Shown piece after piece: positions 22,914 through 47,249 of a stretch of DNA of 64,000 bases (its first letter is position 1; each line of letters begins with the position of its first letter). The position numbers and the translations under genes were made by a program. Source of the DNA: an uncultured bacterium (GTDB lineage Bacteria > Hydrothermota > UBA3073 > NMUJ01 > CBEVQO01). The stretch covers positions 32,915 to 96,914 of the forward strand of contig CBEVQO010000008.1 of NCBI GenBank assembly GCA_965552055.1, given 5' to 3'. The notes under the pieces are model-generated. The model had not been told where the DNA came from, searched no databases, and saw only the letters and a program-made list of their open reading frames with translations.

Positions 22914-24919
22914 AAACTAAATTCTTCGATTTCTTCATACTCTTCGAGTTTCCATTCTGGTATTTTATGGAGATCGCAATATCTTTTTGGTTCTGTTCCT
23001 TTTATGAAATATTCTCTCCTTTTCCTCGGACAATTTTCAGTAGCTAGCAATCCGCTATCAAGGCATATCACCCTTTCTACAATTCCTGAAGGTGGTTTAA
23101 AATTTTTTACAGGTTTGCCTGCTTCTGCCCTTTTCATAAACTCAGCCCAGATAGGTGCTGCGAATCTGCCACCCGTTGCACCGCGCACAATTGTCTTCGG
23201 CTTATCAAACCCAACCCATACTCCACAAACATAATAAGGAGTAAAGCCGATAAACCATGCATCGGTATAATCATCTGTGGTGCCTGTCTTACCTGCACAG
23301 GGTCTTAAAAACCCCTTACGCCGTATAGAACGAGCAGTACCATATTTCACAACACTCTGCATCATGCTTTGCATCAAAAAAGCAACTTGGGGCGTTAAAA
23401 CACGGTCCCTAACGGGCTCCGATTTGTAGATGATATTACCATTTCTATCAACGATTTTTAAAATATAAATGGGTTTCACTCTATATCCTCCGTTCGCAAA
23501 AGCACAATAAGCTGTCACCATATCAAGCAAAGTAACGCAATTTGAACCAAGTGCAAGAGAAATAACAGGCAATAATTTGTGCTCTATTCCCATATTTTCT
23601 GCAAGGTCAACTACTTTTTCTGGTGAAAATTTCATAATCAGCCTGACGGATACTAAATTGCGAGAATATGCTAAAGCATCTCTCAAAGTAATTCTTCCTA
23701 AAAATCTTCTATCATAATTCATCGGTGAATAAATAGTATCTCCTGCATCTACAACGATTGGTGCATCGAGCACCATTGTACCCGGTGTATAACCATTTTG
23801 TAAAGCAACAGCCCATACAAAAGGTTTAAAAGCAGAACCTGGCTGTCTCAATGCCTGAGTAGCACGGTTAAACATGCTCTCCCTGAAATCCCTTCCTCCT
23901 ACCATCGCGAGTATCTCTCCTGTCCTTGGATTCATACAAAGCAAAGCACACTGCAAAGGTTCGCCTTTTTCCTCTCTCACCATATAAAATTTCTTCAACC
24001 TCTTTAACTCTCTTTTGACAACACTCTCTGCAATTTTTTGCAATCGAGAAGACAAAGTTGTATAAATTTTTGCACCACTTGTATAAAGAAATTCTTCGCC
24101 ATATTCTCTTATCAAAATTTTTTTGACTTCTTCCACAAAATAAGGTCCAATTCCTGTTGTCTTTTTCTTCTTTTTCAATCCCAAAGGCGCATTTTTTGCG
24201 TATTCTGCTATATTTCTCGCAATTATACCCTTTTTTGCAAGCAAATCCAGAACTTTTGCCCTCATCTCAACTGCTTTCACAGGGTTAACAAACGGATTAT
24301 AAGAAGAAGGAGCTCTCGGCAAACTTGCAAGTAAAGCACATTCTGGTAATGTTAAATCTTTTACATGTTTACCAAAATATTTTTCTGCTGCTGCTTCCAC
24401 ACCATATGCTCCCTGACCAAAATAAATGTTTGTAAGATACATCTCAAGGATTTCGTCTTTTGAAAATACTCTCTCAATTTTGACAGCAAGAATTGCTTCT
24501 TTTAATTTTCTAATCCATGTTCTTTCCATTGAAAGAAATAAATTCCTTGCCAGCTGCTGAGTTATAGTACTTGCACCTTGTACTACTCTTCCAGCTCTTA
24601 AATTTGTAAGAAAAGCACGAGCAACACCGAAAATATCAATACCCCAATGTTTGTAAAACCTTTTATCTTCTTTTAAAATTATCGCTTTCTTCAAATATTC
24701 AGGTACTTCTGTAAGTTCCACAGGCTTTCTGCGTTGCCCCTGAAATTCATAGATAACATTTCCATCGCGATCAAGTATAACCGCAGGAATTGGAGGTTTA
24801 TATTCTTTTAACCTTGAAATCGAAGGCAGAGTTTTATTAAGAGAGTAAATTACTCCAAATCCCAATCCAAAGATTGTTCCCCATATTCCGCAACATATTA
24901 AAAAAGCTTTTCTCCACAT
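22910..24919 (-). CDS. Class A penicillin-binding protein (PBP1A family)
   Basis: EDKRFY.H.G, GASTITQQLAR, RQPGSAFKP, SRN, KTG; leaderless ATG 24919 inferred (ORF track starts at 24925). Confidence 0.95.
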   Translation of the reverse strand: MWRKAFLICCGIWGTIFGLGFGVIYSLNKTLPSISRLKEYKPPIPAVILDRDGNVIYEFQGQRRKPVELTEVPEYLKKAIILKEDKRFYKHWGIDIFGVARAFLTNLRAGRVVQGASTITQQLARNLFLSMERTWIRKLKEAILAVKIERVFSKDEILEMYLTNIYFGQGAYGVEAAAEKYFGKHVKDLTLPECALLASLPRAPSSYNPFVNPVKAVEMRAKVLDLLAKKGIIARNIAEYAKNAPLGLKKKKKTTGIGPYFVEEVKKILIREYGEEFLYTSGAKIYTTLSSRLQKIAESVVKRELKRLKKFYMVREEKGEPLQCALLCMNPRTGEILAMVGGRDFRESMFNRATQALRQPGSAFKPFVWAVALQNGYTPGTMVLDAPIVVDAGDTIYSPMNYDRRFLGRITLRDALAYSRNLVSVRLIMKFSPEKVVDLAENMGIEHKLLPVISLALGSNCVTLLDMVTAYCAFANGGYRVKPIYILKIVDRNGNIIYKSEPVRDRVLTPQVAFLMQSMMQSVVKYGTARSIRRKGFLRPCAGKTGTTDDYTDAWFIGFTPYYVCGVWVGFDKPKTIVRGATGGRFAAPIWAEFMKRAEAGKPVKNFKPPSGIVERVICLDSGLLATENCPRKRREYFIKGTEPKRYCDLHKIPEWKLEEYEEIEEFSF

Positions 24920-24961
24920 CTTCATATTTTATTCTAAAAAGAAAAAAGTCAAGCAAATAAT

Positions 24962-30619: not shown

Positions 30620-30776
30620 AATTTCTGCCGGCTATATAAAATTGGAAAACAAAGTCAACAAGTTCTTCAAATAATTTGATTTTCTTTCTAAGAGGGAGAT
30701 TCGCTATTTTCACATTTTCTTCTCTTTTCATTTCTTCGAAATCTTTCTTGATTTTTTCCCCTGGTGTTTGTTTCAC
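30588..30776 (-). CDS. Small partner protein of the nucleotidyltransferase
   Basis: Coupled to flanking genes; LPLRKKIKLFEEL. Confidence 0.55.
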   Translation of the reverse strand: MKQTPGEKIKKDFEEMKREENVKIANLPLRKKIKLFEELVDFVFQFYIAGRNYVKRNSPEGK

Positions 30777-31711
30777 TTCGGGATATTTTTTATAAGTTTA
30801 AGCCAGGTTCCTTTGCCAAGTTGCATTCCTTTTACTTTTGGTGCGGAACTTATTTCAACTTTATCAAAAATTTTTCTCAAAGCATCAAGTCCACCGCCTT
30901 TCTTTAATTTCCCACCAAATCCTATGCCCTTGCCGTAATCTATCACATTTACTATTACTTTTCTGGGCTCCATTTCATAACTTATTTCAATGATGCCATC
31001 TTTTCTTCCTCCATATCCATGCTGTATTGCATTCATCATCGCTTCTTTTGCAACAAATTCAAGAGTAGATTCCGGAATCTCTTCCCTCGTAAATCTTGCT
31101 TCCTGATAAAACACTTTCTCAAGGAAAACATAGAAAGCGGCAATATATTTGGGTTCACTTGGTAAGGTAATCACATCTTTTAATCTTGCTTCAACGATAT
31201 ATTTTCTGATATTCTCGGCTTCTATTTGCACTTTTCCTTTTCCAACATAACTTGCGAGCACCTCGAGCCATGTTTTCCTTGCACTTACACCAATCATGCT
31301 TTTTACACGCTGCTCCTGCATCACACGAGCAAGCACCTGTGAAATAACTCCTTCTTCCGCTAATTTCTCAAGCGATGAGTAAACAGTAAAATGCCGAAAA
31401 ACATCAAGAAGCTCAAGGGTTGATTTCACTCCATCTGCTGGCTCCGATAAATAGGCATATTCCCTTTTTGCTTTTCCTATATTTAACAAAAGTTTTATGC
31501 CAGTTGACGAAATAAATCTCAGATTAACAATATCAATTATAAAATTCGATGGCTTTGAAAGGCACTTCCATTTTATATCATTTAAAAGCTCAGCTGCTAC
31601 TTCGGTCTCAAGTGAACCCCCGAAAACAAATCCCCATGTATCGTGTGCAAAATCATAATTCATAAATGCTTTAAAACTGGGAAAATTACGCTCGTAAGTT
31701 TTTACACTCAT
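30773..31711 (-). CDS. STAS (anti-anti-sigma) plus RsbW-like HATPase (anti-sigma kinase) fusion
   Basis: IDIVNLRFISSTGIKLL; EAMMNAIQHG, VIDYGKG, GGGL; ATG 31711 five nt after TTGACA-15-TATAAT. Confidence 0.75.
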   Translation of the reverse strand: MSVKTYERNFPSFKAFMNYDFAHDTWGFVFGGSLETEVAAELLNDIKWKCLSKPSNFIIDIVNLRFISSTGIKLLLNIGKAKREYAYLSEPADGVKSTLELLDVFRHFTVYSSLEKLAEEGVISQVLARVMQEQRVKSMIGVSARKTWLEVLASYVGKGKVQIEAENIRKYIVEARLKDVITLPSEPKYIAAFYVFLEKVFYQEARFTREEIPESTLEFVAKEAMMNAIQHGYGGRKDGIIEISYEMEPRKVIVNVIDYGKGIGFGGKLKKGGGLDALRKIFDKVEISSAPKVKGMQLGKGTWLKLIKNIPK

Positions 31712-31723
31712 CAATTATTATAA

Positions 31724-34232: not shown

Positions 34233-34592
34233 GTGGGTGAAACTATTGCAAAAATAAAAGTATTCGATTTGACAGGTAAAAGAAGTATAGAAGTAAATGC
34301 ACTCGTAGATACAGGTGCAACCTATACCGCAATACCAGAAAAATTACTGGAAAGCATAGGAATTAAAAAAGATGGTAAAATAAAAATAAAGTTTGCAAAT
34401 GGAAAAATCGAAGAAAGATACATCGGAAATGTTTTAATAGAAGTGGAAGGAATTAAAAGAGCAAATCCCGTTATTTTTGCAAAAGAAGAAGATGCAATTG
34501 TAATTGGACTAATAACACTCGAATCATGTGGATTGACAGTTGACCCCATAAGTAAAAAATTAATTCCGCTCCCGGAAATACACCATTATTAA
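34233..34592 (+). CDS. Clan AA retroviral-like aspartyl protease
   Basis: ALVDTGAT...IGLITLE..GLTVDP. Confidence 0.85.
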   Translation: MGETIAKIKVFDLTGKRSIEVNALVDTGATYTAIPEKLLESIGIKKDGKIKIKFANGKIEERYIGNVLIEVEGIKRANPVIFAKEEDAIVIGLITLESCGLTVDPISKKLIPLPEIHHY

Positions 34593-34628
34593 TCCCATTG
34601 ACACAGATATTGCTTTAAAACAATTGAG

Positions 34629-35753
34629 ATGACCGAAGGCATTAGAATACTGGCAGGAGGATTGCTCGCACGAGAAAAAGCACTTTTCATACTATCAAAT
34701 AACATAGCAAACATAAATACCCCGGGATACAAAAGGGATATTCCTTTCTTCCAGAATTATATCCTGAAAAAAATTACGGAAAAAGAATTTATGGAAATCA
34801 AACCTTTACTCGATAAAATAGCACCCTTTAATCCACTTATTGAAAAAGCAGGAAAGAAATTTAGAATTGACCCGGATATTATAAGAGCAATGATTATGAA
34901 GGAATCCGGAGGTAACCCCAAAGCAGTATCAAGAGCAGGTGCAAAGGGCTTAATGCAGTTAACAGACCCTGTAATAAAGATGTACGGAGTGAAAGACCCA
35001 TTTGACCCCAAAGAAAACATAATGGCAGGTGCAAAATATTTAAGATATTTGCTCGATAGATATAACGGGGATAAAAAACTCGCTCTCGCAGCATATAACG
35101 CAGGACCCACAGCAGTTGATAGATGGGGAGGAATACCACCTTACAGAGAAACAGTGCATTATGTCATGGATGTAGAAAGATGGGCAAAAATAATGAAAAA
35201 AGGAAGAAAAGTAAGACCATTTGTGAGAACTGTAATTGACATGAAACCGGGCAAAATTGAGAAAACAGGAAATCCACTCGATCTTGCAATAGATGGAAAG
35301 GGCTTTTTCGCAATAATGACACCTTTTGGATTGAGATATACAAGGAATGGAAACTTCACAATCAACAAAGACGGAGTTATAACAACCATGACAGGTGAAC
35401 CACTTTGTAGCACAAAATACGACAAAATAGTGATCCCAAGAGATGCAAAATTAATAGAAATTGATGAAGATGGAAAAGTATATGCTGATAAAAACTTTAT
35501 CGCACAAATCCTTGTGCTTGACTTCGATGAAGTTAAAAAAGAAGGTGAAAATTTATTTATAGCACTTTCGGATGCAAAAAAACCGAATTGCAGGATATTG
35601 CAGGGATACCTTGAAGCATCAAATGTCAATCCTTTGAGAGAAGTCACCACATTAATCACCAACTTTAGATTTTTTGAAGCGAGTCAAACATCTTTATCCG
35701 CTCAGGATAGAACTTTGCAGAGCTTGATTAGGGAGGCACCGAGATTAACATAA
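34629..35753 (+). CDS. flgF: Flagellar rod protein FlgF with an internal SLT lytic transglycosylase domain
   Basis: SNNIANINTPGYK; SLT motifs ES/GLMQ/AYNAG at aa ~67-185; TGNPLDLAIDGKGFF, YTRNGNF, QGYLEASNVN; directly upstream of flgG. Confidence 0.88.
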   Translation: MTEGIRILAGGLLAREKALFILSNNIANINTPGYKRDIPFFQNYILKKITEKEFMEIKPLLDKIAPFNPLIEKAGKKFRIDPDIIRAMIMKESGGNPKAVSRAGAKGLMQLTDPVIKMYGVKDPFDPKENIMAGAKYLRYLLDRYNGDKKLALAAYNAGPTAVDRWGGIPPYRETVHYVMDVERWAKIMKKGRKVRPFVRTVIDMKPGKIEKTGNPLDLAIDGKGFFAIMTPFGLRYTRNGNFTINKDGVITTMTGEPLCSTKYDKIVIPRDAKLIEIDEDGKVYADKNFIAQILVLDFDEVKKEGENLFIALSDAKKPNCRILQGYLEASNVNPLREVTTLITNFRFFEASQTSLSAQDRTLQSLIREAPRLT

Positions 35754-35763
35754 AGGAGGGGCT

Positions 35764-36555
35764 ATGTTGCGAGCTATGAAAACAGCGGTAACGGGCATGA
35801 ATGCCCAGCAAATTTTGATAGACACCATCGCTAACAACCTCGCAAATATAAACACCGTGGGATATAAGGCACAGAGAGCTACTTTTAGAGACCTCTTATA
35901 TCAAACGATAAAAGAACCCGGCAGAATAGTAAGGCTAAATTATACAGCACCCATTGGGATTCAACTTGGATGCGGAACAGAAGTATCAGCAGTAGAAAGG
36001 GATTTTAGAAAAGGCAGGGTATTACAGACGGGTAATCCTCTTGATGTCTTAATCGATGGAGATGGATTTTTCGAGGTAGAACTCCCTGATGGAAGAATAG
36101 CATATACAAGGGATGGTGCATTTAAACTCTCTGCAGATGGATTACTCGTAACAAGCGAAGGATATCCACTTCTACAAAGGATTTATATACCACCGGAAGC
36201 AGAATCTATCATCATTTCAAAAGACGGAACTGTTTCTGTAACTTATCCCGATGAAGTAGAGCCTGAAGTTTTGGGACAGATTATGATTGCGAAGTTCGTA
36301 AACCCTCAGGGACTCAAAGCAATAGGCGAAAACTTATATGTTGAGACACCGGCATCAGGAAAGCCAATAGAAGGAGTGCCAGGTGAAGAAGGATTCGGTG
36401 AACTGCGACAATCATATCTTGAAATGGCAAATGTTGATATAGTAAAAGAGATGGTAAATATGATTATGGCTCAAAGAGCATTCGAGATAGCAAGCAGGGT
36501 AATTACAACATCAGATAGAATGTTCGAGATAACAAATAGATTGGTAAGAGCATGA
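35764..36555 (+). CDS. flgG: Flagellar distal rod protein
   Basis: ANNLANINTVGYK, F.DLLYQ, TGNPLD, YTRDG, LEMANV..V.EMV.MI.AQRAFE. Confidence 0.95.
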   Translation: MLRAMKTAVTGMNAQQILIDTIANNLANINTVGYKAQRATFRDLLYQTIKEPGRIVRLNYTAPIGIQLGCGTEVSAVERDFRKGRVLQTGNPLDVLIDGDGFFEVELPDGRIAYTRDGAFKLSADGLLVTSEGYPLLQRIYIPPEAESIIISKDGTVSVTYPDEVEPEVLGQIMIAKFVNPQGLKAIGENLYVETPASGKPIEGVPGEEGFGELRQSYLEMANVDIVKEMVNMIMAQRAFEIASRVITTSDRMFEITNRLVRA

Positions 36556-37151
36556 TTGCTTTATTCTTAATCTTTTTAAATCTTGATTCATTAATCAACT
36601 GCGAAATCAAAAAAGCATTTGGCGATAATTATATTGCAGAAATTGAGAACAAAAATACATTAAAATTCGATAGTATTGCGATTTTAAATCTTCCGCAGAA
36701 ATTATCCGAAAATTTGATAATACCTGTTTTAGCTTCTGTTGATACTCTGACACAAAGATTGTTTATAAGTATAAGGGTGGAAAAGGAGGCTGAAGTGCCT
36801 CTGGCTTTGAGGGATATAAAAAGAGGAGAGATAATAAAAGAAGGGGATTATAAAATCGTTCACAAAAAAATTCCGATTTATTTGAATGTCAAGGAAAATA
36901 TTTGCGGTATGAGAGCCAAAAGATTGATAAGAGCAGGTGAAGTTATTACATTGGAAGATGTTGAAAAACCTCCTCTTGTGAGGTATGGCGATATAGTGAT
37001 GGTAATTTTGAAAGAGGGCAATCTAAAAATATCGACGAGAGGAAGGGCGATGCGTGATGGCTGGGAAGGCGATATAATTCCTGTGCGATTATACAACGGG
37101 AAAATTTTACAGGGAAAAGTTTTATCAAACGGGAAAATTATTCTAATGTAG
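36552..37151 (+). CDS. flgA: P-ring assembly chaperone
   Basis: SAF-like RDIKRGEII; PPLVRYGDIV; GRAMRDG..GD.I.V. Confidence 0.85.
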   Translation: MIALFLIFLNLDSLINCEIKKAFGDNYIAEIENKNTLKFDSIAILNLPQKLSENLIIPVLASVDTLTQRLFISIRVEKEAEVPLALRDIKRGEIIKEGDYKIVHKKIPIYLNVKENICGMRAKRLIRAGEVITLEDVEKPPLVRYGDIVMVILKEGNLKISTRGRAMRDGWEGDIIPVRLYNGKILQGKVLSNGKIILM

Positions 37152-37159
37152 GAGGGATT

Positions 37160-37702
37160 ATGCTTTTATTCTTACTTTTGCAATTTGAATCACTTTACAG
37201 TGACCTCAAACCCAAAACCGTGGGTGATATCGTAACAGTCATAATTGTGGAAGAAGCTTCAGGATTGCACGAAACAGAAGTATCTACCGGTAAAGAGGCG
37301 AAACTGGGATTTGAAGAAGAAGCAGCAGGATTATCATACATTGCAAAATTCCTCAGCAAGATACCTTTAAGTGCATCTTTCGGATTCGGTGCTCATAATA
37401 AACATAAGGGTAAAGGCAAAATTAAAAGAAAGAATATGTTGACTGGAATAATAACTTGCAGGGTTACGGATGTGCTTGAAAATGGAAATCTGATGATTTA
37501 TGGAAAAAAGGAAGTAGTGGTAAATAGAGAAAGATGTGCAATTGAACTATCAGGAATAATAAGACCCGAAGATGTAGAACCAGACAATACAATACTATCA
37601 ACAAAAATAGCGGATGCAAAAATTAAATACACAGGAAAAGGTGTGGTATCGGGAGGAACAAAAAAGGGAATATTTCACAGATTGCTTGACTGGATATTCT
37701 GA
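37160..37702 (+). CDS. flgH: Flagellar L-ring protein
   Basis: SLYSD..VGDIVTVII.E, VLENGNL.I.G, SGIIRPED, STKIADA. Confidence 0.9.
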   Translation: MLLFLLLQFESLYSDLKPKTVGDIVTVIIVEEASGLHETEVSTGKEAKLGFEEEAAGLSYIAKFLSKIPLSASFGFGAHNKHKGKGKIKRKNMLTGIITCRVTDVLENGNLMIYGKKEVVVNRERCAIELSGIIRPEDVEPDNTILSTKIADAKIKYTGKGVVSGGTKKGIFHRLLDWIF

Positions 37703-37704
37703 AA

Positions 37705-38697
37705 ATGAAAGGATTTTTTAAATATATTGTGATTTTCATAGCATTCTCCTTATCAGCCGAAAGAATTAAAGATATAACGGAGATAAAAGGGCTACCTAAA
37801 ATTCATGCCGTTGGATACGGACTGGTCGTTGGATTAAAAGGTACAGGTGACCACAGATTGAACACTTACACGATACATTCAATTGTAAATATGCTAAAGA
37901 GATTTGGGATATCGGTTTCTCCCCGGCATTTAACCGCAAGAAATGCTGCTGCCTGCATCGTAACAGCAGAAATACCTCCTTTCGCAAAGATAAATTCAAG
38001 AATAGATGTAAGGGTATCTTCAATGGGCGATGCAAGAAGCCTGGAGGGAGGGGTATTATTGATGACACCTTTAATGGACGAAACAGGAGAAATTTGCTGT
38101 ATCGCACAGGGACCCCTTACTTTATCGGAAAATATTAAAACAACGGGCTACATCCCGAACGGCGGGATAATTGTGAAAACGGTCGTAAGCGAGATAGGAG
38201 ACACATTCTCTTTAATATTGCGTCAGCCAGATTTAACCACGGCTCGCAATTTAAGAGATGTTATAAATGCACAATTCCCTGGAGTAGCACGACTCATTGA
38301 CCCTGCAGAAGTGAGAATAATAGTGCCCCCTCCCTACAGGGGGAGAGGCGCGGCATTCCTTGCCGTCATAGAAACTTTAAATGTAGTAACAGATGAACCA
38401 GCAGTGGTAGTAATAAATCAAAGGACAGGCACAGTGATATCCGGCAGGAATGTCGTGCTCTCCCCCTGTTGTATCGCACATAACGGCTTAAAAATTGAAA
38501 TTTTACCTCAAGCACCTGTACCTCCAGGTTCTCTTTATGTAGTATCAAGGCATGTTATGGCTTTCGAAGGAGCAGCGACTGTCGGAGATGTAGCAAATGC
38601 ACTCAACAAACTTGGAGCAAAACCCGAAGACATAATCTATATTTTCCAGGCAATGAAAAGAGCAGGAGTTTTAAAAGCAAAATTAATAATAATGTAG
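37705..38697 (+). CDS. flgI: Flagellar P-ring protein
   Basis: RIKDI, GYGLVVGLKGTGD, VSSMGDARSLEGG.LL.TPL, VINQRTGTV. Confidence 0.95.
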   Translation: MKGFFKYIVIFIAFSLSAERIKDITEIKGLPKIHAVGYGLVVGLKGTGDHRLNTYTIHSIVNMLKRFGISVSPRHLTARNAAACIVTAEIPPFAKINSRIDVRVSSMGDARSLEGGVLLMTPLMDETGEICCIAQGPLTLSENIKTTGYIPNGGIIVKTVVSEIGDTFSLILRQPDLTTARNLRDVINAQFPGVARLIDPAEVRIIVPPPYRGRGAAFLAVIETLNVVTDEPAVVVINQRTGTVISGRNVVLSPCCIAHNGLKIEILPQAPVPPGSLYVVSRHVMAFEGAATVGDVANALNKLGAKPEDIIYIFQAMKRAGVLKAKLIIM

Positions 38698-38705
38698 GAG
38701 GAAAA

Positions 38706-39137
38706 ATGAAAGTATGGGCTGAAAATCACATGGCAATAACAAAATGCAAATTAAAAAATAATTTAGAGCCTCTAATATTATGCGAAGAACTAGCAGAAGC
38801 AGAAATATCAATCGAATACCTCACTTTCATAAACTTCGATGAAGAAAAAGAAATGACTTTAATATTAAGAAACGGCTGTTTTAAAAAATTACAAAACACA
38901 TTTAAAAAAATAAAAAGGATGTTAAAAATAAAAAACGCAGATTTAAAAGAGACACATTGCTTAACGGTAGCAATTTCCAATGCAAAATACAATTTAGATA
39001 AAAAATCAGAATTGCTTAACACCATTGAAAAGAATATGGAGAGTGAATTTTTATTAATGACACCAATTTCCATGAAAATATTTACGAGCAAGTTAATAAA
39101 TAAAGATTTGAAAACTAAAATAAAGGAGGGGCAATGA
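38706..39137 (+). CDS. Divergent tandem ACT-domain-like protein
   Basis: LCEELAEAEISIEYL; size and pattern parallel the next gene; SD AGGAGG. Confidence 0.5.
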   Translation: MKVWAENHMAITKCKLKNNLEPLILCEELAEAEISIEYLTFINFDEEKEMTLILRNGCFKKLQNTFKKIKRMLKIKNADLKETHCLTVAISNAKYNLDKKSELLNTIEKNMESEFLLMTPISMKIFTSKLINKDLKTKIKEGQ

Positions 39138-39595
39138 CAGCGAGGTCTCCTGTCTGGGTTGAGCAAGATAAAGGTTGTATACTTTTAAAATGCGAAGCAA
39201 AGATAGGAATAGCAAGGACAATTTGCCAGATTATGGCAAGAGAAGGCATAAACATAGAATATATGGTGACAGCAACGATGCCAAAAGAAAAAGAAGGGAC
39301 AATTGTCATAATAGTAAACGCTACAAATCTAAAGAAAGCAGCAGATATATTAAAATCTGCAAGAAAGGAAATTGCTCTTAAGTCCTTAAAATCAGAAGTT
39401 CTCACATGCATAACCGTTGATATAGTTAAAGTGCGGCATGTGCCAGGGGTGGGAGCCAAACTGTTTGCCGAATTCGCGGAAAGGAAAATCGGAGTTTTAA
39501 TAGCAATCACAACAGCTGCCGGGATGAAATTCTATGTGCGACCGGAGGACGCAACACCCGCCATTATAAGCGCTTTAAGGAGGTTAGTGGAATGA
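39134..39595 (+). CDS. Tandem ACT-domain protein (aspartokinase beta-subunit-like)
   Basis: GIARTICQIMAREGINIEYM and HVPGVGAKLFAEFAERKIGV match the AK ACT1/ACT2 patterns. Confidence 0.7.
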   Translation: MTARSPVWVEQDKGCILLKCEAKIGIARTICQIMAREGINIEYMVTATMPKEKEGTIVIIVNATNLKKAADILKSARKEIALKSLKSEVLTCITVDIVKVRHVPGVGAKLFAEFAERKIGVLIAITTAAGMKFYVRPEDATPAIISALRRLVE

Positions 39596-39867
39596 TCCAT
39601 CTTAATACAATACCACCTCATTTACCACCCGATAAAAAGATTGAAGTAGCGGCAAAGGAATTTTATAGAATTTTCAACTATTATCTTTTAAGAGCAATGC
39701 AGAAAACCGTTGATTTTGATGGAAATGGAGACAGTTTCGAGAAAAAATTCTGGCTCGATGTTTTTTGCGATATGCTTTCTGAAGTTTTAGCAGAATGGGA
39801 GGCAAAATGCAGGGGAGGAATATTGCAGAACTTAGCAGAATCCTTGAAAAAGAACTTACAGCGGTAA
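39592..39867 (+). CDS. flgJ: Short rod-cap FlgJ without muramidase domain
   Basis: AAKEF...LLRAMQKTV....G....F....D.....A pattern; position between flgI and flgN. Confidence 0.7.
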   Translation: MIHLNTIPPHLPPDKKIEVAAKEFYRIFNYYLLRAMQKTVDFDGNGDSFEKKFWLDVFCDMLSEVLAEWEAKCRGGILQNLAESLKKNLQR

Positions 39868-40286
39868 AAAATCTAATTTCACTATCGATAAGAAAAAAAG
39901 AATGCCTGTTAAAATCCGACCATGAAAATCTTGCAGAAACCGTAACAGAATTCGAGAAAGAATTACAAAAATTATTGAACATGGAAGAAGAAAGGAAAAA
40001 AATTACTGTAAAAGTAGCAAAAGAGTATAAAATGGAAAATCCAAATTTAAAAGAAATAATAAAAATCGCAGGTAATGAAGCAGAAAGGTTAGAAAAAATA
40101 AGAAACGAATTAAACTCTTCACTAAAAAAATTGACAAAGATAAACTATGATAACGCTTATTTGATATCGAGCCATTTATCCCTATTGAATGAAGTAATTA
40201 ATGTCATTGCGAAAAGGGAGGAAGAGGTCTATTCGAAATCCGGCAAATTAAAGGTCGAAAGGAATATTCTGGAGGGCAAAGCATGA
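39807..40286 (+). CDS. flgN: Flagellar export chaperone FlgN
   Basis: Helical; LEKEL...KKECL...LTKIN..N..L; directly before flgK. Confidence 0.75.
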   Translation: MQGRNIAELSRILEKELTAVKNLISLSIRKKECLLKSDHENLAETVTEFEKELQKLLNMEEERKKITVKVAKEYKMENPNLKEIIKIAGNEAERLEKIRNELNSSLKKLTKINYDNAYLISSHLSLLNEVINVIAKREEEVYSKSGKLKVERNILEGKA

Positions 40287-41647
40287 GCAGGATTCAGGAT
40301 TTATTATACATCGGCAGAAGTGCTTTATTAGCGCAGAGAATAGCAGAATGGGTTACACAGCATAACATCGCAAATGCCAATACACCGGGATATACAAGAC
40401 AGGAGGCAGTTCTATCGCCAGGGATACCAATAAGAATGGTAGGAGCACCGGATTTGCTTGGAACAGGTGTAGAAGTCGAAAGAATAAGAAGAATGAGAGA
40501 TATTTATCTCGATGCAAGATTCTGGTATCAGCAGGGAGTTTTTTCACACTGGGAGATGCGTGAAAAATCTCTAAAAGATATTGAAGAAGTTTTATCACCT
40601 ACTGCTGGTCCAAATTTATCAGATGTTTTAACGGAATTCTGGATGGCATGGCAGGACCTCGCAAATGACCCAGAAAATATGGCTGTAAGACAGGCACTCA
40701 TAGATAAAGCAGATATGCTATGCAGAGAATTCCATAGACTTTATAGCCATTTGACAGATATACAGAGAATGCTCGATGAAGATGTTAAAATTAAAGTTGA
40801 TAGAATAAACACTATAATTAAACAAATCGCAAAAATAAACGAAGATATCGCAAAAGCAGGAGGAAATGCAAATGACTTACTCGACAAAAGAGATAAACTT
40901 GTAGATGAACTTGCAAAATATGTAAATGTGAGAGCAGACCTCGATGAAGAAGAAGTATTTACAGTTAGAATTGGTGGCTTGATCGTCGTACAAGGCAGAG
41001 AATATGTTGAAATAGGATTACAAAGAGAAGAAACCGGATGGAAACTTGTTTATACACCTACTGGTAAAATAATGGATATAGAAGAAGGCGAAATAAAAGG
41101 AATTTACGAAGTAAGAGACGAAATTATCCCTGATTTTCTTAACAAACTTAACACACTTGCATCAACTATAATTAATGAAGTAAACAGGATTCACAGAACA
41201 GGTTATGCTCTTGATGGGATAACAACGGGTCTCGATTTCTTCGATGGAACAGATGCATCGGATATAGAAGTGCGTGCAAATATTGTAGCAGACCCATCTC
41301 TCATCGCAGCATCAGCTGATGGCTCACCGGGTAACAACGGGATAGCCCTCCAGATAGCAGACCTGCAGTATAAACCCATAATGAACGGCGGAACAGAATC
41401 TTTCTCAAAATACTATAACAGTTTGCTAACAAAAATAGGTAACCTTGTGCAGGACGCAGAAGGACGCAGACAGCACGAAGAAGCATTTTTGACATCATTG
41501 GAAGACCAGAAGCAACAGATAGAAGGTGTTGACCTCGATGAAGAAATGCTAAACCTTATGAAATACCAGTATGCATATGAAGCAGCTGTAAAAATGATAA
41601 ATATAACAAATGAAATGATAGATGAACTATTTACGATAATATCATGA
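40283..41647 (+). CDS. flgK: Hook-associated protein 1
   Basis: HNIANANTPGYTRQ, GTGVEV..I.R.RD, NDLLDKRD, GVDLDEEM.NL. Confidence 0.95.
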   Translation: MSRIQDLLYIGRSALLAQRIAEWVTQHNIANANTPGYTRQEAVLSPGIPIRMVGAPDLLGTGVEVERIRRMRDIYLDARFWYQQGVFSHWEMREKSLKDIEEVLSPTAGPNLSDVLTEFWMAWQDLANDPENMAVRQALIDKADMLCREFHRLYSHLTDIQRMLDEDVKIKVDRINTIIKQIAKINEDIAKAGGNANDLLDKRDKLVDELAKYVNVRADLDEEEVFTVRIGGLIVVQGREYVEIGLQREETGWKLVYTPTGKIMDIEEGEIKGIYEVRDEIIPDFLNKLNTLASTIINEVNRIHRTGYALDGITTGLDFFDGTDASDIEVRANIVADPSLIAASADGSPGNNGIALQIADLQYKPIMNGGTESFSKYYNSLLTKIGNLVQDAEGRRQHEEAFLTSLEDQKQQIEGVDLDEEMLNLMKYQYAYEAAVKMINITNEMIDELFTIIS

Positions 41648-42558
41648 GAATAAGTTTGCACACATTCATCAAAAAAGCATTGTTTGATATATGGACTGCA
41701 AAAGAAAGATTATTTAAGGTGCACGAACATTTATCATCGGGTAAAAGATTAACAAAACCTTCCGATGACCCCATCGCCATTTATCATGCTGAAAATATAA
41801 AAAATGATAAAAAAGCAATCTCTCAATATTCAGAAAATATAGCGAATGCAATCGGATGGATGAGATTTACAGAATCCGTCCTTGATACTTTAACAGAAAA
41901 ATTAACAAGGGCAAAACAACTGGCACTTCAGGGCTCAAACGATACTTACACAACAGAAGAAAGACAAAAGATAGCTGAAGAAGTAAATCAAATCTTAGAA
42001 AATATTTATGCAATGTCAAATACCCGTTATAAAGAAAAATATATATTCGGAGGAACAGAGACCCTGACAGAAGCATATTCAGCTGTATATGACCCTGTAA
42101 CAGGCGAGATAACGGATGTATTGCCAAATCCCGCAGGAATAACAGGTCAGATTTTAAGAGAAATAAACGAAAACGAATTCATAGTTATAAACCTATCCGG
42201 AGAAGAAGTATTTTCAGGTCCGGATGTCGATATTTTCGATGTATTAATAGATTTAAGAGACTCATTAAGAACGGATGACATAAATGGTATAAAGCAGGCA
42301 ATTGAAGACCTTGAAACTGCACTAAATCAGGTACTGAGAGCAAGGACAAAACTCGGTGGTATGATGAATAGATTAGAAAATTGCGATTCATTCCTGAAAT
42401 CAAAAGATTTAAGTTTGGAAAAGAATTTAAGCCAGCTCGAAGACGCAGATATTGCAGAAGAAGTAATAATGCTTGAGAAAGAACAGATGTTATATCAGAT
42501 GGCTCTCGCAGCTACCCAAAAAGTTTTATCACTTTCACTTACACAATTTATAGTATAA
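41644..42558 (+). CDS. flgL: Hook-associated protein 3
   Basis: LSSGKRLTKPSDDP, YIFGG, EDADIAE, SLTQF. Confidence 0.93.
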   Translation: MRISLHTFIKKALFDIWTAKERLFKVHEHLSSGKRLTKPSDDPIAIYHAENIKNDKKAISQYSENIANAIGWMRFTESVLDTLTEKLTRAKQLALQGSNDTYTTEERQKIAEEVNQILENIYAMSNTRYKEKYIFGGTETLTEAYSAVYDPVTGEITDVLPNPAGITGQILREINENEFIVINLSGEEVFSGPDVDIFDVLIDLRDSLRTDDINGIKQAIEDLETALNQVLRARTKLGGMMNRLENCDSFLKSKDLSLEKNLSQLEDADIAEEVIMLEKEQMLYQMALAATQKVLSLSLTQFIV

Positions 42559-42639
42559 ACTTTCCCGAAATTTTTCCGAAATATTAAATGCATGCTTGAC
42601 AAAGCTGTAATAAGATTAAAATATAAAGAAGGAGGGAGT

Positions 42640-43431
42640 ATGTGTAAGAAGATTTTATTTATTATGCTAATGACCACGGGAATACTTGTAGCGCAGGAGA
42701 CACCGGAAAAACCTGCAGAAGCACCGGCTGAAATACCGGGAGTGAAGCCATTGAAAGGACCATTCGGAGGAGGTATAGGTTTACTCGCAGGAACTTATTA
42801 CATGCCAGGACTATCCGACCTTGATAAAAAATTATCGGGAACATGGAAAACTATACTGACGGGAGCAGGTAAACTTCCATCCAATCTTTTCATATCGGGT
42901 GTGAGGGCATATGTTTACATTACTCAAAATTTTAGACTGGGAGCATTGTCAATGAATGGAATAACACGAGCAGGTAATGTCTCTGAAATCGATACTTATC
43001 ATTATTCGTGTGAATTCTCAATCTCAAACTGGGCATTTTTAATGGAGTTCTCACCCATAAAGTTTACGGGAAGGGAGTTAACGGTAAGCATAGGTGTAGG
43101 CGGAGGCACTGCAACATTGAGGCTTTTGAAAATATTGAGATTACCCAGCTGGGATGAAATTTGCAGAGGTGATGAAAGAGCATGGGGAGAAGGTTTTGCC
43201 TCGGAGCTGGATGCGGATTTCTTGAACTTTAGAGGCGGATTGGAATTCCTTTTCCCTATAACTGCATGGTTCAAATTGGGATTTGCATTAAACATATCTT
43301 ATGCCAAAATACCTTTCGGAGGATGGTATCTGCACTCTAAGGAACACAGAATAGCAAACTCACCGAGTGTAAGCTTATTTGGAGTGACCTTTGAAATAAC
43401 TCCAAGATTCGACAATAGACCAAGATGGTAA
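42640..43431 (+). CDS. Exported beta-barrel-like protein, paralog 1
   Basis: Signal peptide; GPFGG; LPSWDEI; WYLHS...NSPSV...RFDNR; own promoter and SD. Confidence 0.65.
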   Translation: MCKKILFIMLMTTGILVAQETPEKPAEAPAEIPGVKPLKGPFGGGIGLLAGTYYMPGLSDLDKKLSGTWKTILTGAGKLPSNLFISGVRAYVYITQNFRLGALSMNGITRAGNVSEIDTYHYSCEFSISNWAFLMEFSPIKFTGRELTVSIGVGGGTATLRLLKILRLPSWDEICRGDERAWGEGFASELDADFLNFRGGLEFLFPITAWFKLGFALNISYAKIPFGGWYLHSKEHRIANSPSVSLFGVTFEITPRFDNRPRW

Positions 43432-44102
43432 TACTATTGATGTGCGCATTATGGAAAGCTACGGGCGGAGGAATAGGCACTTACTATTCGTTATTTTTCG
43501 GAAATTTCCAGAAAATGGAAAGGAGACTAAATTTCGGAAACAAAATGGAAATAAACGGAATTTATAGCTACGCATATACAAAGAAAGGAGATAGAATCGG
43601 AATTATTTCTGGAAAGGGATTTATTAGCACTCTGCCCAAATCCCTGAATAACGATACCTTAAATTTTATCTGCAAACTGAAAGTACTTGGCGTTGCCTTT
43701 GAAAAGCCTTTTTTAAAATATTGCATTTTCGGTATAAATTTTTCCCAGATTTCTGCCGAATATTTTATTGGAATGTTTAAAAAAGAAAAAATTAACTGGA
43801 GTGAAGCCTGTGAAGGAGAAAACTTTAGAGCAATTCAGGTAGATGGGAAGTATACTTCCTTTTCTGCATACACGGGATTTGAATTCGGGGTTATTCGTCG
43901 ATTTAAACTCTTTATCGGGGGCGGGATAAACTTTTTAATCATACCAAAAGGTTCTTTCTGGATACATGGAAATAGATATCTCCTCGTAGATTCCCCACAA
44001 ACTTTCATTCACTCATTTTATCTGATAATTAATCCAAAATTTGATGTCAAAGGTTATTATAGAAAAATTTTCTTAAAAGAAAAGAAGGGGAGGAAAAAAT
44101 GA
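43425..44102 (+). CDS. Exported beta-barrel-like protein, paralog 2
   Basis: INWSEA; FWIHG...DSPQT...PKFD. Confidence 0.6.
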   Translation: MVILLMCALWKATGGGIGTYYSLFFGNFQKMERRLNFGNKMEINGIYSYAYTKKGDRIGIISGKGFISTLPKSLNNDTLNFICKLKVLGVAFEKPFLKYCIFGINFSQISAEYFIGMFKKEKINWSEACEGENFRAIQVDGKYTSFSAYTGFEFGVIRRFKLFIGGGINFLIIPKGSFWIHGNRYLLVDSPQTFIHSFYLIINPKFDVKGYYRKIFLKEKKGRKK

Positions 44103-44881
44103 AAAAATTACTTATTTTATGCATACTCGCAGGCAGTGCACTTTGGGCACAGGAAGAGGGTCCGTTTGGCGCCACTTTCACAGTGCATGGAGGTTTACAT
44201 TTTCTCTCTTTCAACAAAGAAATATTAAAAGGACTGGCATTCGCTGGAATTTATAGCGATACACTCCCGGAAACTTATAAAAAGGAGAAAAAATATGGAT
44301 TCGGCAATTCACTTACATCCGTAGGATTCGATGCCTTCGCATATTTCTCTGACCACCATAAAATTGGCATTTTTTATGCACAGGGCTTCAGTAAAGCAAA
44401 AAGGAGAATAAAAAATTGGCCAGTTATAACAGATACCGGTACTATTTATTCACAGGCAAATTCTATTGCAGAAATTTCAATGAGAACCTATGGATTCGAA
44501 CTCGGTTATTCTTCATGGGTAACAGAATCAATAGAACTTGGAGTAGCCTGTGGAATCGGTAAAGCATCTTCTGTCTTCCGAAGATTATTATTACTTTATC
44601 TGCCTACATGGGAGCAAATTAACGAAGGAACGGAAAAACCTCCTTTCTTCATGAGTGAAATATCTTCAAACTTCTTCCTCATAAGACTTGTCCTCTCTGT
44701 TAAATACAAATTCGTTAAATGGTTGATAGTAGGATTACAAACAGGTGGATGGTTTGGAAGAACAAAATTCGGCAACTGGTACATACACGGAATGCAAAAC
44801 ATACCCGATTCTCCCAATGTCAGCTTCAATGGATTTTTCTTTAACCTATCATTAACACTTGACAATAGATCATTAAGATAA
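44099..44881 (+). CDS. Exported beta-barrel-like protein, paralog 3
   Basis: Signal peptide; GPFGA; LPTWEQI; WYIHG...DSPNV...LDNR. Confidence 0.65.
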   Translation: MKKLLILCILAGSALWAQEEGPFGATFTVHGGLHFLSFNKEILKGLAFAGIYSDTLPETYKKEKKYGFGNSLTSVGFDAFAYFSDHHKIGIFYAQGFSKAKRRIKNWPVITDTGTIYSQANSIAEISMRTYGFELGYSSWVTESIELGVACGIGKASSVFRRLLLLYLPTWEQINEGTEKPPFFMSEISSNFFLIRLVLSVKYKFVKWLIVGLQTGGWFGRTKFGNWYIHGMQNIPDSPNVSFNGFFFNLSLTLDNRSLR

Positions 44882-44970
44882 AAATCCAAAAATTTCAGCT
44901 TGACAATCGAATATTTTGGTAATTATTAATAAACAGATGGGGTGGGGGTATAAAATAAAAAGGAGGGGTC

Positions 44971-45564
44971 ATGCGTAAATTATTAATACCCCTAACAGCA
45001 ATTATTATTTTAGCATGTGCAGGAGGCGGTAAAGAAAAAATGCCCGACTGGGTAAAGAGAGGTCCAGGTGCTTTCCCCGGCGACGAAGGAAAATATATCT
45101 ATGGAGTGGGAGTAGCGGACTGGGCAGGTAGTGTTGCAATGACCTATGAGAAAGCAAACCACAGAGCAAGGGTTGAGCTCGCAAGAGCAATTAAAACCTA
45201 TGTAGCTGCAATGGTAAAAGATTTCATGGAATCCTATCCAGAATATTTCACTGACGAAGCAAAAGTTCACACATCAGAATATACGATGAAAATAAGTAAA
45301 GAAATATCGGAAGCCACACTCAGAGGTGCGGTGATAATAGACCACTGGCCAGATGAACCCAAACCCGGAAAACCACTGTATGCACTCGCAAGAGTGGAAA
45401 AAGGTGGAGGAGTTGACGAATGGATTAAAAAACATATTCAGGGATTAATTTTAAAAGCAAAGGCAGAAGCTGCACTTGAAGAACTCGACAAGGAACTTAA
45501 AAAAGTAGATTTGAGAGAAAAAGAAAATATAGAGAAATACCTTGGTGTCCCGATGTCAAAATAA
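44971..45564 (+). CDS. LPP20-family lipoprotein
   Basis: Lipobox ILAC; PDWV; YGVG; A..RARVELA; LRGA. Confidence 0.75.
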   Translation: MRKLLIPLTAIIILACAGGGKEKMPDWVKRGPGAFPGDEGKYIYGVGVADWAGSVAMTYEKANHRARVELARAIKTYVAAMVKDFMESYPEYFTDEAKVHTSEYTMKISKEISEATLRGAVIIDHWPDEPKPGKPLYALARVEKGGGVDEWIKKHIQGLILKAKAEAALEELDKELKKVDLREKENIEKYLGVPMSK

Positions 45565-46763: not shown

Positions 46764-47249
46764 ATGAGAAAATACACTGTTTTTATGCTACTGGCTATAA
46801 TACTGGCAAACACCTGCAAAATTAAAGAAAATCCCCCGCATTTCATATATAAATTATATGAATTCGACCCTTTGATCGAGGAAATCGCAAAGAAACATAA
46901 CATAGACCCTGTTCTCATAAGGGCAATTATAATTCAGGAATCGGGCTGTAATCCATACGCCGTATCAAGAAAAGGAGCAAAAGGCTTAATGCAGATAACA
47001 CACTGGATAATAAAAAAGTATAAAATAAATGACCCATTTGACCCTTATCTCAACATATACGCTGGCACTCTTTATTTCAAAGAATTGCTCAATAAATTTA
47101 AAGATGTAAATCTCGCATTAGCAGCATATAATGCAGGACCTACTGCAGTAAAAAAATACAAAGGAATACCACCCTATAGGGAGACAAAAAGATTTGTCCG
47201 TAAAGTATTAAAATATTACGAAATTCTCAAAAGATATTACAAAACTTAA
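46764..47249 (+). CDS. Stand-alone SLT lytic transglycosylase, possibly a lipoprotein
   Basis: IIQESG, GAKGLMQ, ALAAYNAG, IPPYRET; LANTC. Confidence 0.9.
   Translation: MRKYTVFMLLAIILANTCKIKENPPHFIYKLYEFDPLIEEIAKKHNIDPVLIRAIIIQESGCNPYAVSRKGAKGLMQITHWIIKKYKINDPFDPYLNIYAGTLYFKELLNKFKDVNLALAAYNAGPTAVKKYKGIPPYRETKRFVRKVLKYYEILKRYYKT

What the first reader, a model, noticed from the sequence alone, without database searches (positions are those of the whole stretch)
34629..35753. Flagellar rod protein FlgF with its own built-in lytic transglycosylase
Seen: an intact SLT domain (aa ~67-185, nt ~34827-35183; catalytic E92 in IMKESGG, GLMQL, AGAKYL, ALAAYNAG, IPPYRET) sits in frame between the FlgF N-terminal motif (SNNIANINTPGYK) and its D1 domain (TGNPLDLAIDGKGFF). 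Known: rods cross peptidoglycan using the FlgJ muramidase (enterics) or a separate enzyme such as SltF (Rhodobacter). Inference: here a structural rod subunit, exported through the flagellar T3SS, would itself cut the wall. I do not know of this arrangement being described.
Basis: partly seen in the sequence, partly recalled or inferred. Interest (0 to 1): 0.9.

Follow-up and report, generated by a model that had tools for sequence, protein, structure and literature searches.

The report
Flagellar rod subunit carrying wall-cutting enzyme
In the few flagellated members of an uncultured bacterial phylum (WOR-3), a structural subunit of the flagellar drive shaft has a complete cell-wall-cutting enzyme domain inserted into it, so the shaft itself likely opens the hole through the wall that other bacteria open with a temporary cap protein or a separate enzyme.

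Summary
Confirmed, and not an assembly artefact. Window 34629-35753 encodes the genome's only FlgF, with an intact lytic transglycosylase (SLT; E92 aligns with Slt70 E478) inserted at the tip of the Dc/L-stretch hairpin. Of 272 genomes in the phylum (WOR-3), 6 have rod/hook D1 genes and all 6 carry this fusion: three families, 37-43% identity to the window protein. The SLT is under purifying selection (dN/dS 0.02-0.09). In the 5 genomes whose locus reaches it, FlgJ is cap-only, and no GH73 was found. Neighbouring phyla have FlgJ-SLT plus a normal FlgF in the same operon, and the fused SLT falls weakly among those domains, so it likely moved from cap to rod. A deltaproteobacterial species has an SLT inserted at a different FlgF site; one origin is rejected for the rod part (p=0.002). 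Best reading: five rod-bound enzymes cut the wall just above the MS-ring as the rod grows. Activity, incorporation and expression are untested, and this genome also has a secreted SLT paralog. Nine literature searches and this scan's notes showed no such fusion.

The parts
34629..35753 (+). flgF::slt, 374-aa FlgF with an inserted lytic transglycosylase; first flagellar gene of the flgF-G-A-H-I-(ACT x2)-J-N-K-L run
   Evidence: no other flgF found in the genome
34629..34751 (+). FlgF N-terminal D0 helix and first Dc strand (aa 1-41); no Sec-like hydrophobic core
   Evidence: Pfam Flg_bb_rod 5-35; model helix 3-27, strand 37-41; peak hydropathy 1.66 vs 2.65 for FlgI
34752..34826 (+). linker before the SLT (25 aa here, 10-11 aa in the five relatives), low model confidence
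34827..35186 (+). SLT / family-1 lytic transglycosylase domain (aa 67-186); catalytic Glu92 at 34902-34904; ES, GLMQL, AAYNAG and PPYxET motifs in all six genomes
   Evidence: VIA Z 19.1 (rmsd 3.8, 136 aligned) to MltF 4oxv
35223..35750 (+). second Dc strand, D1 domain and C-terminal D0 helix of FlgF (aa 199-374)
   Evidence: Pfam D1 220-286 and Flg_bbr_C 325-368; VIA Z 21.4 (rmsd 3.2, 227 aligned) to 8wk3_o
35764..36555 (+). flgG, distal rod, normal length
   Evidence: TIGR02488 348 bits vs cut-off 252.75
36552..38697 (+). flgA, flgH, flgI (P- and L-ring genes)
   Evidence: Pfam ChapFlgA, FlgH, FlgI
38706..39595 (+). two tandem-ACT-like genes between flgI and flgJ, conserved in the relatives' operons
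   Evidence: the first gene has no Pfam hit and aligns at 19%
39592..39867 (+). flgJ reduced to the rod-binding (cap) domain, 91 aa, no enzyme domain
   Evidence: no Pfam hit; own HMM of 57 FlgJ N-termini E 9.2e-13, only significant hit among 9421 genome ORFs (E 4.8e-9), hhalign 98.4%
39795..42558 (+). flgN, flgK, flgL
46764..47249 (+). free SLT paralog (161 aa) with a hydrophobic signal-like N-terminus; sister to the fused domain of this genome; no such short close paralog found in the five relatives
   Evidence: (SH-aLRT 91)

Best explanation
This is the flagellar rod subunit FlgF with an intact lytic transglycosylase inserted at the tip of its Dc hairpin, and it likely works as a rod-mounted wall cutter: predicted to be exported by the flagellar type III system, to assemble as the five-copy FlgF layer just above the MS-ring collar, and to cleave peptidoglycan glycan strands there so that the FlgG rod and P-ring can pass. 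Shown here: the domain order, an intact catalytic site, conservation in every rod-bearing genome of the phylum, purifying selection, no other flgF found, a cap-only FlgJ and no GH73 found. [quoted passage not shown] Inferred from phylogeny and gene order, with weak branch support: the enzyme domain moved from an ancestral FlgJ-SLT into FlgF. Unlike the cap, FlgF is not discarded, so the enzyme would stay on the finished motor. Its action probably speeds assembly rather than being strictly essential.
For: Architecture. E92 aligns without gaps to Slt70 residue 478 (that E478 is catalytic is recalled; the ES-GLMQ-AYNAG definition is from PMC8517470). 6 of 272 phylum genomes have a PF22692 match and all 6 have the fused gene. 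SLT dN/dS is 0.02-0.09 in the 4 within-genus pairs, at or below the D1 part (0.08-0.11); invariant columns are 49 of 119 in the SLT vs 44 of 171 in D1+D0C. The AF2 model (89-row alignment, pLDDT 87.3) has both modules folded, strands 37-41 and 199-203 flanking the insert, and soft linkers. The insertion sits in a loop of 25-75 residues in 70 unfused FlgF-like proteins. FlgJ is 91-105 aa and cap-only in 5 of 5 loci that reach it. No PF01832 match in any of the 6 genomes. In 4 of the 5 relatives the only other SLT sits in a 637-733-codon frame; G012 has one more, weaker match. 37 of 159 loci from other lineages have FlgJ(rod-binding)+SLT and none has a fused FlgF. All 6 fused SLT rows fall in a 103-row group holding 82 of the 84 FlgJ-SLT rows (SH-like 85). 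Room exists at this level: the Borrelia FrbA pentamer, 133 A across, sits at the FlgC/F/G junction above the collar and contacts FlgF Glu46 (10.64898/2026.10.14.759264). An SLT can pass the flagellar export channel: CwlQ (10.1101/2021.01.13.426625). A second insertion exists at another site (P0135).
Against: No biochemistry, no cultured host in the data and no rod docking (no coordinates on the script machine). FliF loops slot between FlgB, FlgC and FlgF (10.1101/2020.12.05.413195), and one review places the whole proximal rod inside the beta-collar (PMC11673145), so a 14-kDa domain could clash or fall short of the wall; the relatives' linkers are only 10-14 aa. This genome has a signal-bearing free SLT paralog. 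Cap-only FlgJ is common anyway (26 of 159 loci), so it is consistent rather than diagnostic. FlgJ hydrolysis is dispensable in Salmonella and CwlQ is not needed for flagellar assembly. The SLT tree has no starred branch for the donor, the fused SLTs come out in 3 places, and the candidates were gathered with the fusions as queries.
Confidence: 0.64

Rival explanations
1. The enzyme cuts the wall off the rod. FlgF would serve as export tag and timer, and the cutting would be done by surplus unassembled molecules or by an SLT clipped out at its soft linkers, much like CwlQ or SltF.
For: Linkers are low-confidence and variable. CwlQ is a T3SS-exported soluble SLT. FliK+SLT proteins (9 of 120 rows) show that exported, non-structural flagellar proteins also carry SLTs. 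A clan-AA aspartyl protease gene lies 36 bp upstream here.
Against: An internal insertion needs two cuts to free the domain and would split the only FlgF into two chains; a terminal fusion would do the job more simply. The protease gene is not upstream in the five relatives, by ORF listing. The rod part is as constrained as the enzyme.
Confidence: 0.15
2. The domain is mainly structural or wall-binding: five helical domains brace the proximal/distal rod junction like Borrelia FrbA, or hold the nascent rod at the wall, with catalysis secondary.
For: FrbA shows that a helical pentamer works at this level. Eight other FlgF/G-like proteins carry a non-enzymatic insert of about 100 aa at the same site.
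Against: The catalytic Glu and all motifs are invariant in 11 of 11 sequences and the SLT is more conserved than D1. Binding a rotor to the wall would oppose rotation (inference). The enzyme domain is missing from FlgJ in these genomes.
Confidence: 0.09
3. The main role is after assembly: enzymes left on the rotating shaft keep a ring of wall clear around the motor as the cell wall grows.
For: FlgF is a permanent five-copy subunit, whereas the cap is dislodged at PL-ring completion (PMC13584718). Two separate moves of an SLT into FlgF suggest something a cap fusion does not give.
Against: There is no direct evidence. The P-ring already separates rod and wall. Other bacteria rotate without it.
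Confidence: 0.1
4. Assembly chimera, or a neutral passenger domain.
For: All genomes are metagenome assemblies; the second type (P0135) is known from one species and no DNA context could be fetched.
Against: Six genomes in three families have the same insertion point; contigs of other runs span both junctions; dN/dS is under 0.1.
Confidence: 0.02

Closest known systems
Dual-domain FlgJ of Salmonella / E. coli (rod cap + GH73 N-acetylglucosaminidase)
   Same: A wall-cutting domain is carried on a T3SS-exported rod-assembly protein and delivered where the rod meets the wall (PMC13584718, Introduction and Discussion read).
   Different: Here the carrier is a permanent structural subunit, not the transient cap; the enzyme is an SLT, not GH73; it is inserted internally, not appended; FlgJ is cap-only.
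FlgJ(Rod-binding PF10135)+SLT proteins of Fibrobacterota, Zixibacteria, Ignavibacteriota, Kapabacteria and others
   Same: Same operon (flgF-G-A-H-I-J-N-K-L) and the closest SLT domains (best matches 62-68% identity); the likely donor.
   Different: There the SLT is the C-terminal half of FlgJ and the FlgF gene has no SLT; none of 37 such loci has a fused FlgF.
Rhodobacter SltF, Borrelia BB0259, Caulobacter PleA (cap-only FlgJ plus a separate lytic transglycosylase)
   Same: SLT chemistry paired with a single-domain FlgJ; SltF binds FlgJ and is modulated by rod proteins (PMC7277832, PMC8517470, passages). A reference title names FlgB and FlgF as SltF modulators (seen only in a reference list; paper not held).
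   Different: Those are separate proteins, and SltF is Sec-exported; here enzyme and rod subunit are one chain with no signal peptide. NF047373 (BB0259) scores 74 vs cut-off 234.
Bacillus subtilis CwlQ
   Same: An SLT exported by the flagellar T3SS through N-terminal information (10.1101/2021.01.13.426625, abstract and Discussion read).
   Different: CwlQ is not a rod subunit and is not needed for flagellar assembly.
Borrelia FrbA rod brace
   Same: Five helical units at the FlgC/FlgF/FlgG junction above the beta-collar (10.64898/2026.10.14.759264, passages).
   Different: A separate signal-peptide protein with a mechanical role and no catalytic role described in the passages read; used here only as a steric precedent.

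Membership tests
FlgE/F/G axial protein family (TIGR03506) | Flg_bb_rod N-terminus, D1 domain and Flg_bbr_C C-terminus, score over cut-off | tested here: met
   TIGR03506 153.6 bits vs 70.25
FlgF orthologue | gene directly upstream of flgG, with flgG and flgE present separately | tested here: met
   same in the five relatives
FlgF orthologue | rod part groups with FlgF, not FlgG | tested here: met
   99* split from six FlgG rows; FlgE rows were not included in the tree
FlgF equivalog model TIGR02490 | whole-protein score at or over 178.5 bits | tested here: not met
   158.8 bits in two stretches, though the best-scoring model; not filed as a TIGR02490 equivalog, FlgF identity rests on position, exclusion and tree
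FlgF orthologue | exported by the flagellar T3SS and built into the rod in five copies | not testable with these tools
   no Sec-like N-terminus; copy number from Salmonella
Family-1 lytic transglycosylase (SLT, PF01464) | Pfam score over cut-off and ES-GLMQ-AYNAG motifs | tested here: met
   motif definition from PMC8517470
Family-1 lytic transglycosylase (SLT, PF01464) | single catalytic Glu at the end of the first core helix | tested here: met
   E92 aligns with Slt70 residue 478 (its catalytic role recalled); model helix 82-93
Family-1 lytic transglycosylase (SLT, PF01464) | fold of solved lytic transglycosylases | tested here: met
   VIA Z 19.1, rmsd 3.8, 136 aligned (4oxv); Z 17.4, rmsd 2.6, 130 aligned (5mpq)
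Family-1 lytic transglycosylase (SLT, PF01464) | release of 1,6-anhydromuropeptides | not testable with these tools
   needs an assay
Dual-domain FlgJ | rod-binding cap domain in the same chain as the enzyme | tested here: not met
   no PF10135 in P0001; the cap domain is a separate 91-aa gene. Works like it, is not it.
SltF / BB0259 / PleA stand-alone flagellar transglycosylases | separate protein with a signal peptide | tested here: not met
   the paralog at 46764-47249 does fit this pattern by sequence
CwlQ-type secreted transglycosylase | T3SS-secreted SLT without structural axial domains | tested here: not met
   full D0/D1 rod domains present and constrained

The most novel reading that the evidence does not exclude
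The flagellar drive shaft is itself an enzyme: five lytic transglycosylases stay on the finished, rotating rod and act as a hole-saw that cuts, and then keeps clear, a round opening in the wall. This design arose at least twice (WOR-3 and a deltaproteobacterial species) by inserting unrelated SLT domains into two different surface loops of FlgF.
Probability: 0.25. Interest if true: 0.92.

Novelty: new variant of a known kind. Interest (0 to 1): 0.74.

Why it matters
How the rod crosses the wall is being re-argued: the 2026 Salmonella paper (PMC13584718) finds the cap hydrolase helpful but not essential, and names only cap-fused or separate enzymes. This adds a third placement, on a permanent rod subunit, fixed in every rod-bearing genome of a phylum, which argues that local cutting is under selection there. 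It gives a one-gene test of where and when cutting matters: the same domain on cap, on rod or free. It also marks two FlgF loops that tolerate a 120-150-residue insert, useful for labelling the proximal rod. Automatic annotation hides the fusion: relatives are named only 'flagellar hook-basal body complex protein'.

Tried and rejected
Chimera: rejected. Second normal flgF: none found. First AF2 run with 11 rows folded only the SLT (pLDDT 53). A mixed 134-row alignment was misaligned and dropped; the 89-row one was used. Pfam did not recognise the short FlgJ proteins (0 of 22 genomes over cut-off); an own profile did. Longer (656-2000 aa) rod/hook+SLT fusions: none among the 120 listed of 1460 hits, which is weak evidence. 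DNA context for P0135: two metagenome scans, 401 phylum genomes and 101 class genomes gave only unfused relatives; the E-value cut and candidate limits could hide distant cases. AU test on the SLT domain alone did not reject one origin for both fusion types (p=0.127). ESM Atlas gave no usable hit, which shows nothing. No RNA holder was listed. The promoter/terminator scan was at chance level (34 vs 44 and 9 vs 9.7). The upstream aspartyl protease as a processing enzyme was set aside as not seen upstream in the relatives. No complex prediction was sent. PMC6153662 and PMC4907107 are not held. Small-share sequencing runs were not used for habitat.

Full report
Observation. Window 34629-35753 (+) is one 374-aa ORF with the Pfam order Flg_bb_rod 5-35, SLT 70-169, FlgE/F/G D1 220-286, Flg_bbr_C 325-368, all over their cut-offs. 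It opens a run flgF-flgG-flgA-flgH-flgI-two ACT-like genes-91-aa ORF-flgN-flgK-flgL. TIGR02490 (FlgF) is the best NCBIfam model but stays under its cut-off (158.8 vs 178.5, two stretches); TIGR03506 passes and the next gene passes as FlgG. tblastn of the genome (G000, 97% complete) finds no second flgF. Of 25 flagellar proteins from relatives, 24 have a match in G000 (FliK did not), and flagellin is on C4. A class-A PBP at window 22910-24925 indicates a peptidoglycan wall.

It is real. Among the 120 listed of 7278 hits, four other 90% clusters match full length at 37-40% with the same four Pfams; the five clusters hold 12 members, 11 full-length and one 113-aa fragment. Four of 19 listed runs were laid: X1 has one contig over 34300-36600 with 35 other letters and no gaps, X3 one over 34300-35307, X2 one over 34735-36074, and X5 only short pieces. 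The well-covered runs that carry a label are hydrothermal vent metagenomes.

Distribution. Protein names for relatives in the same class and phylum read candidate division WOR-3, Ca. Stahlbacteria and Ca. Hydrothermia. PF22692 matches 6 of 272 genomes of the phylum (G000, G004, G006, G008, G012, G020; three families, one class). All 6 have the fused gene at the flgF position, 42-43% identical to the window protein, with no stop inside. A seventh genome (G021, 61% complete) has flagellin but no rod gene assembled. The four FlgG rows of the class form a starred clade, so the flagellum looks inherited within the class. These are kin, so the six count as one event: one clade is not rejected for the rod part (p-AU 0.557, 40 rows) or for the SLT with the window paralog (p-AU 0.473, 53 rows), although the free trees did not recover it and P0001 is a long branch.

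Enzyme. E92 aligns without gaps to Slt70 residue 478 (its catalytic role is recalled). The ES-GLMQ-AYNAG motifs named in PMC8517470 (passages) are invariant in 11 of 11 sequences. In the four within-genus pairs SLT dN/dS is 0.09, 0.02, 0.09 and 0.08, against 0.09, 0.11, 0.09 and 0.08 for D1+D0C; the other 11 pairs are saturated or near it. Invariant columns: SLT 49 of 119, D1+D0C 44 of 171, N-terminus 12 of 41.

Structure. With an 89-row alignment AF2 gives pLDDT 87.3 and pTM 0.61: helix 3-27, strand 37-41, a low-confidence stretch 44-65, the SLT 67-193, strand 199-203, D1 and the C-terminal helix. The relative orientation of the two modules is not reliable. VIA-align gives Z 21-22 to rod subunits and Z 14-19 to lytic transglycosylases (Foldseek agrees). 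By sequence, residues 6-50 and 187-367 match Salmonella FlgG 6-50 and 64-258, so the insert replaces the tip of the Dc hairpin (L-stretch; PMC11673145, passages). The stretch is 25-75 residues long in 70 unfused FlgF-like proteins and 149-166 in the fusions. [quoted passage not shown] In Borrelia a 133-A helical pentamer sits at this junction above the collar and contacts FlgF Glu46 (10.64898/2026.10.14.759264, passages). That makes an outward-facing ring of five SLT domains plausible. I could not dock it, and the FliF loops or the short linkers of the relatives (10-14 aa) could argue against it.

The cap lost its enzyme. The gene in the flgJ slot is 91-105 aa in 5 of 5 loci that reach it (G008's contig ends earlier). 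Pfam misses it, but a profile of 57 FlgJ N-termini scores all five (E 9e-13 to 9e-8), finds it as the only significant hit among 9421 ORFs of G000, and hhalign gives 98.4%. No GH73 match was found in the six genomes (1 of 22 in the class, under cut-off). In 159 loci from other lineages, 37 have FlgJ(rod-binding)+SLT (Fibrobacterota, Zixibacteria, Ignavibacteriota, Kapabacteria and others) and none has a fused FlgF; 26 have a FlgJ-like gene without SLT beside rod genes, so a short FlgJ alone is not diagnostic. In a 218-row SLT tree (7 fused rows and 211 of 357 others, after a 72% redundancy filter) the six WOR-3 rows lie in a 103-row group holding 82 of 84 FlgJ-SLT rows (SH-like 85, not starred); a 53-row IQ-TREE run agrees. 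Support is weak and the candidates were gathered with the fusions as queries, so 'moved from FlgJ into FlgF' is likely, not shown.

A second fusion. A profile search of 1.84 billion 50% representatives listed, among the best 150, two proteins with both rod and SLT domains: P0003 and P0135; more distant fusions under 184 bits would be missed. P0135 (371 aa) has its SLT after D1, a clean insert of about 138 residues against 230-aa relatives at 51-67% identity, some named Deltaproteobacteria or Ca. Desulfofervidaceae. Its catalytic motifs are intact. One clade with the WOR-3 type is rejected on the rod part (p-AU 0.002) but not on the SLT alone (0.127), where it falls among free SLTs. It is known from four near-identical sequences on four contigs; its four closest GTDB relatives are unfused and no DNA context was found. 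It is a good lead, weaker than the main finding.

Results against or limiting. G000 has a free 161-aa SLT at 46764-47249 with a hydrophobic N-terminus (2.93 vs 1.66 for the fusion), sister to its own fused domain (91). It could be an SltF-like helper; the relatives lack a close short paralog. The Salmonella cap hydrolase improves but is not required for assembly (PMC13584718; abstract, Introduction, Discussion). CwlQ is exported by the flagellum yet not needed to build it (10.1101/2021.01.13.426625; abstract, Discussion). Nothing here measures activity, export, incorporation or expression.

Mechanism. Most likely (0.64): export through the flagellar T3SS, assembly under the cap-only FlgJ as the FlgF layer, and local cleavage of glycan strands just before and while FlgG extends (pores 2-7 nm, rod 8-13 nm). 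Rivals: cutting by unassembled or clipped enzyme (0.15), post-assembly clearing as the main role (0.10), structural brace (0.09), artefact (0.02).

Novelty. Nine full-text searches returned no description of an enzyme domain inside a rod subunit. Passages of PMC7277832, PMC8517470, PMC6913195, PMC13277936, PMC10746217 and PMC7509429 describe only cap-fused or separate enzymes, or do not bear on it. Subscription journals are mostly not held, two SltF papers could not be read, and supplements (for example of PMC13277936) were not examined and could list such architectures. This scan's notes had no match by words, in this genome or among relatives; one note on another genome gave the CwlQ lead. 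Verdict: a new variant of a known kind (dedicated flagellar wall lysis) with an apparently undescribed placement on a permanent rod subunit; interest 0.74.

Noticed in passing
P0135, P0398-P0400 (proteins, no locus): Second FlgF-SLT fusion with the enzyme inserted after D1, in a deltaproteobacterial species; close relatives are unfused.
   Followed up: partly
L033:7524-8402, L041:7614-8432, L048:7503-8378 and 34 more loci: FlgJ with rod-binding + SLT (not GH73) is widespread in Fibrobacterota, Zixibacteria, Ignavibacteriota, Kapabacteria and others (37 of 159 loci); no paper on this type turned up.
   Followed up: partly
P0313, P0493, P0495 and 7 more proteins: FliK-like proteins (PF02120 C-terminal) with an SLT domain, N-terminal in the three scanned; 9 of 120 rows plus P0313. 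Possibly another exported carrier of a wall-cutting domain.
   Followed up: partly
window 38706-39595; L128:13248-13703; L131:6239-7170; L132:6948-7893: One or two tandem-ACT genes sit between flgI and flgJ in 5 of 5 WOR-3 loci that cover the slot; a possible metabolite-sensing input to flagellar assembly, unexplained.
   Followed up: partly
window 46764-47249: Free SLT with a signal-like N-terminus, sister to this genome's fused domain, at the end of the + strand run after flgL; perhaps a lineage-specific duplicate released from the fusion.
   Followed up: partly
P0150, P0152, P0158, P0212, P0225, P0235, P0257, P0277: FlgF/G-like proteins of 346-366 aa with an insert of about 100 aa, no Pfam SLT, at the same Dc-tip site; by eye beta-rich and D1-like.
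   Followed up: partly
L045:7776-9152; L039:7698-10439: Free SLT genes directly upstream of a flgF-like gene (L045) or of a 567-aa gene in a flagellar-looking cluster (Gastranaerophilales; by eye).
   Followed up: no
phylum-wide: Flagella are rare in WOR-3: rod/hook genes in 6 of 272 genomes, all in one class; flagellin in 7 of 22 genomes of that class.
   Followed up: partly
window 34233-34592: Clan-AA aspartyl protease gene 36 bp upstream of flgF on the same strand; not seen upstream in the relatives; run X1 differs most here.
   Followed up: partly
window 42592-46720: Three related-looking secreted proteins without a firm Pfam hit (one weak autotransporter-beta match) and an LPP20 lipoprotein follow flgL on the same strand.
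   Followed up: no
window 30773-31714 (-): STAS + HATPase_c_2 in one chain, an anti-anti-sigma/anti-sigma fusion.
   Followed up: no
window 49746-51913 (-): Two lipoprotein-like genes built of repeated 'F/WGDG' modules, PKD-like by eye.
   Followed up: no
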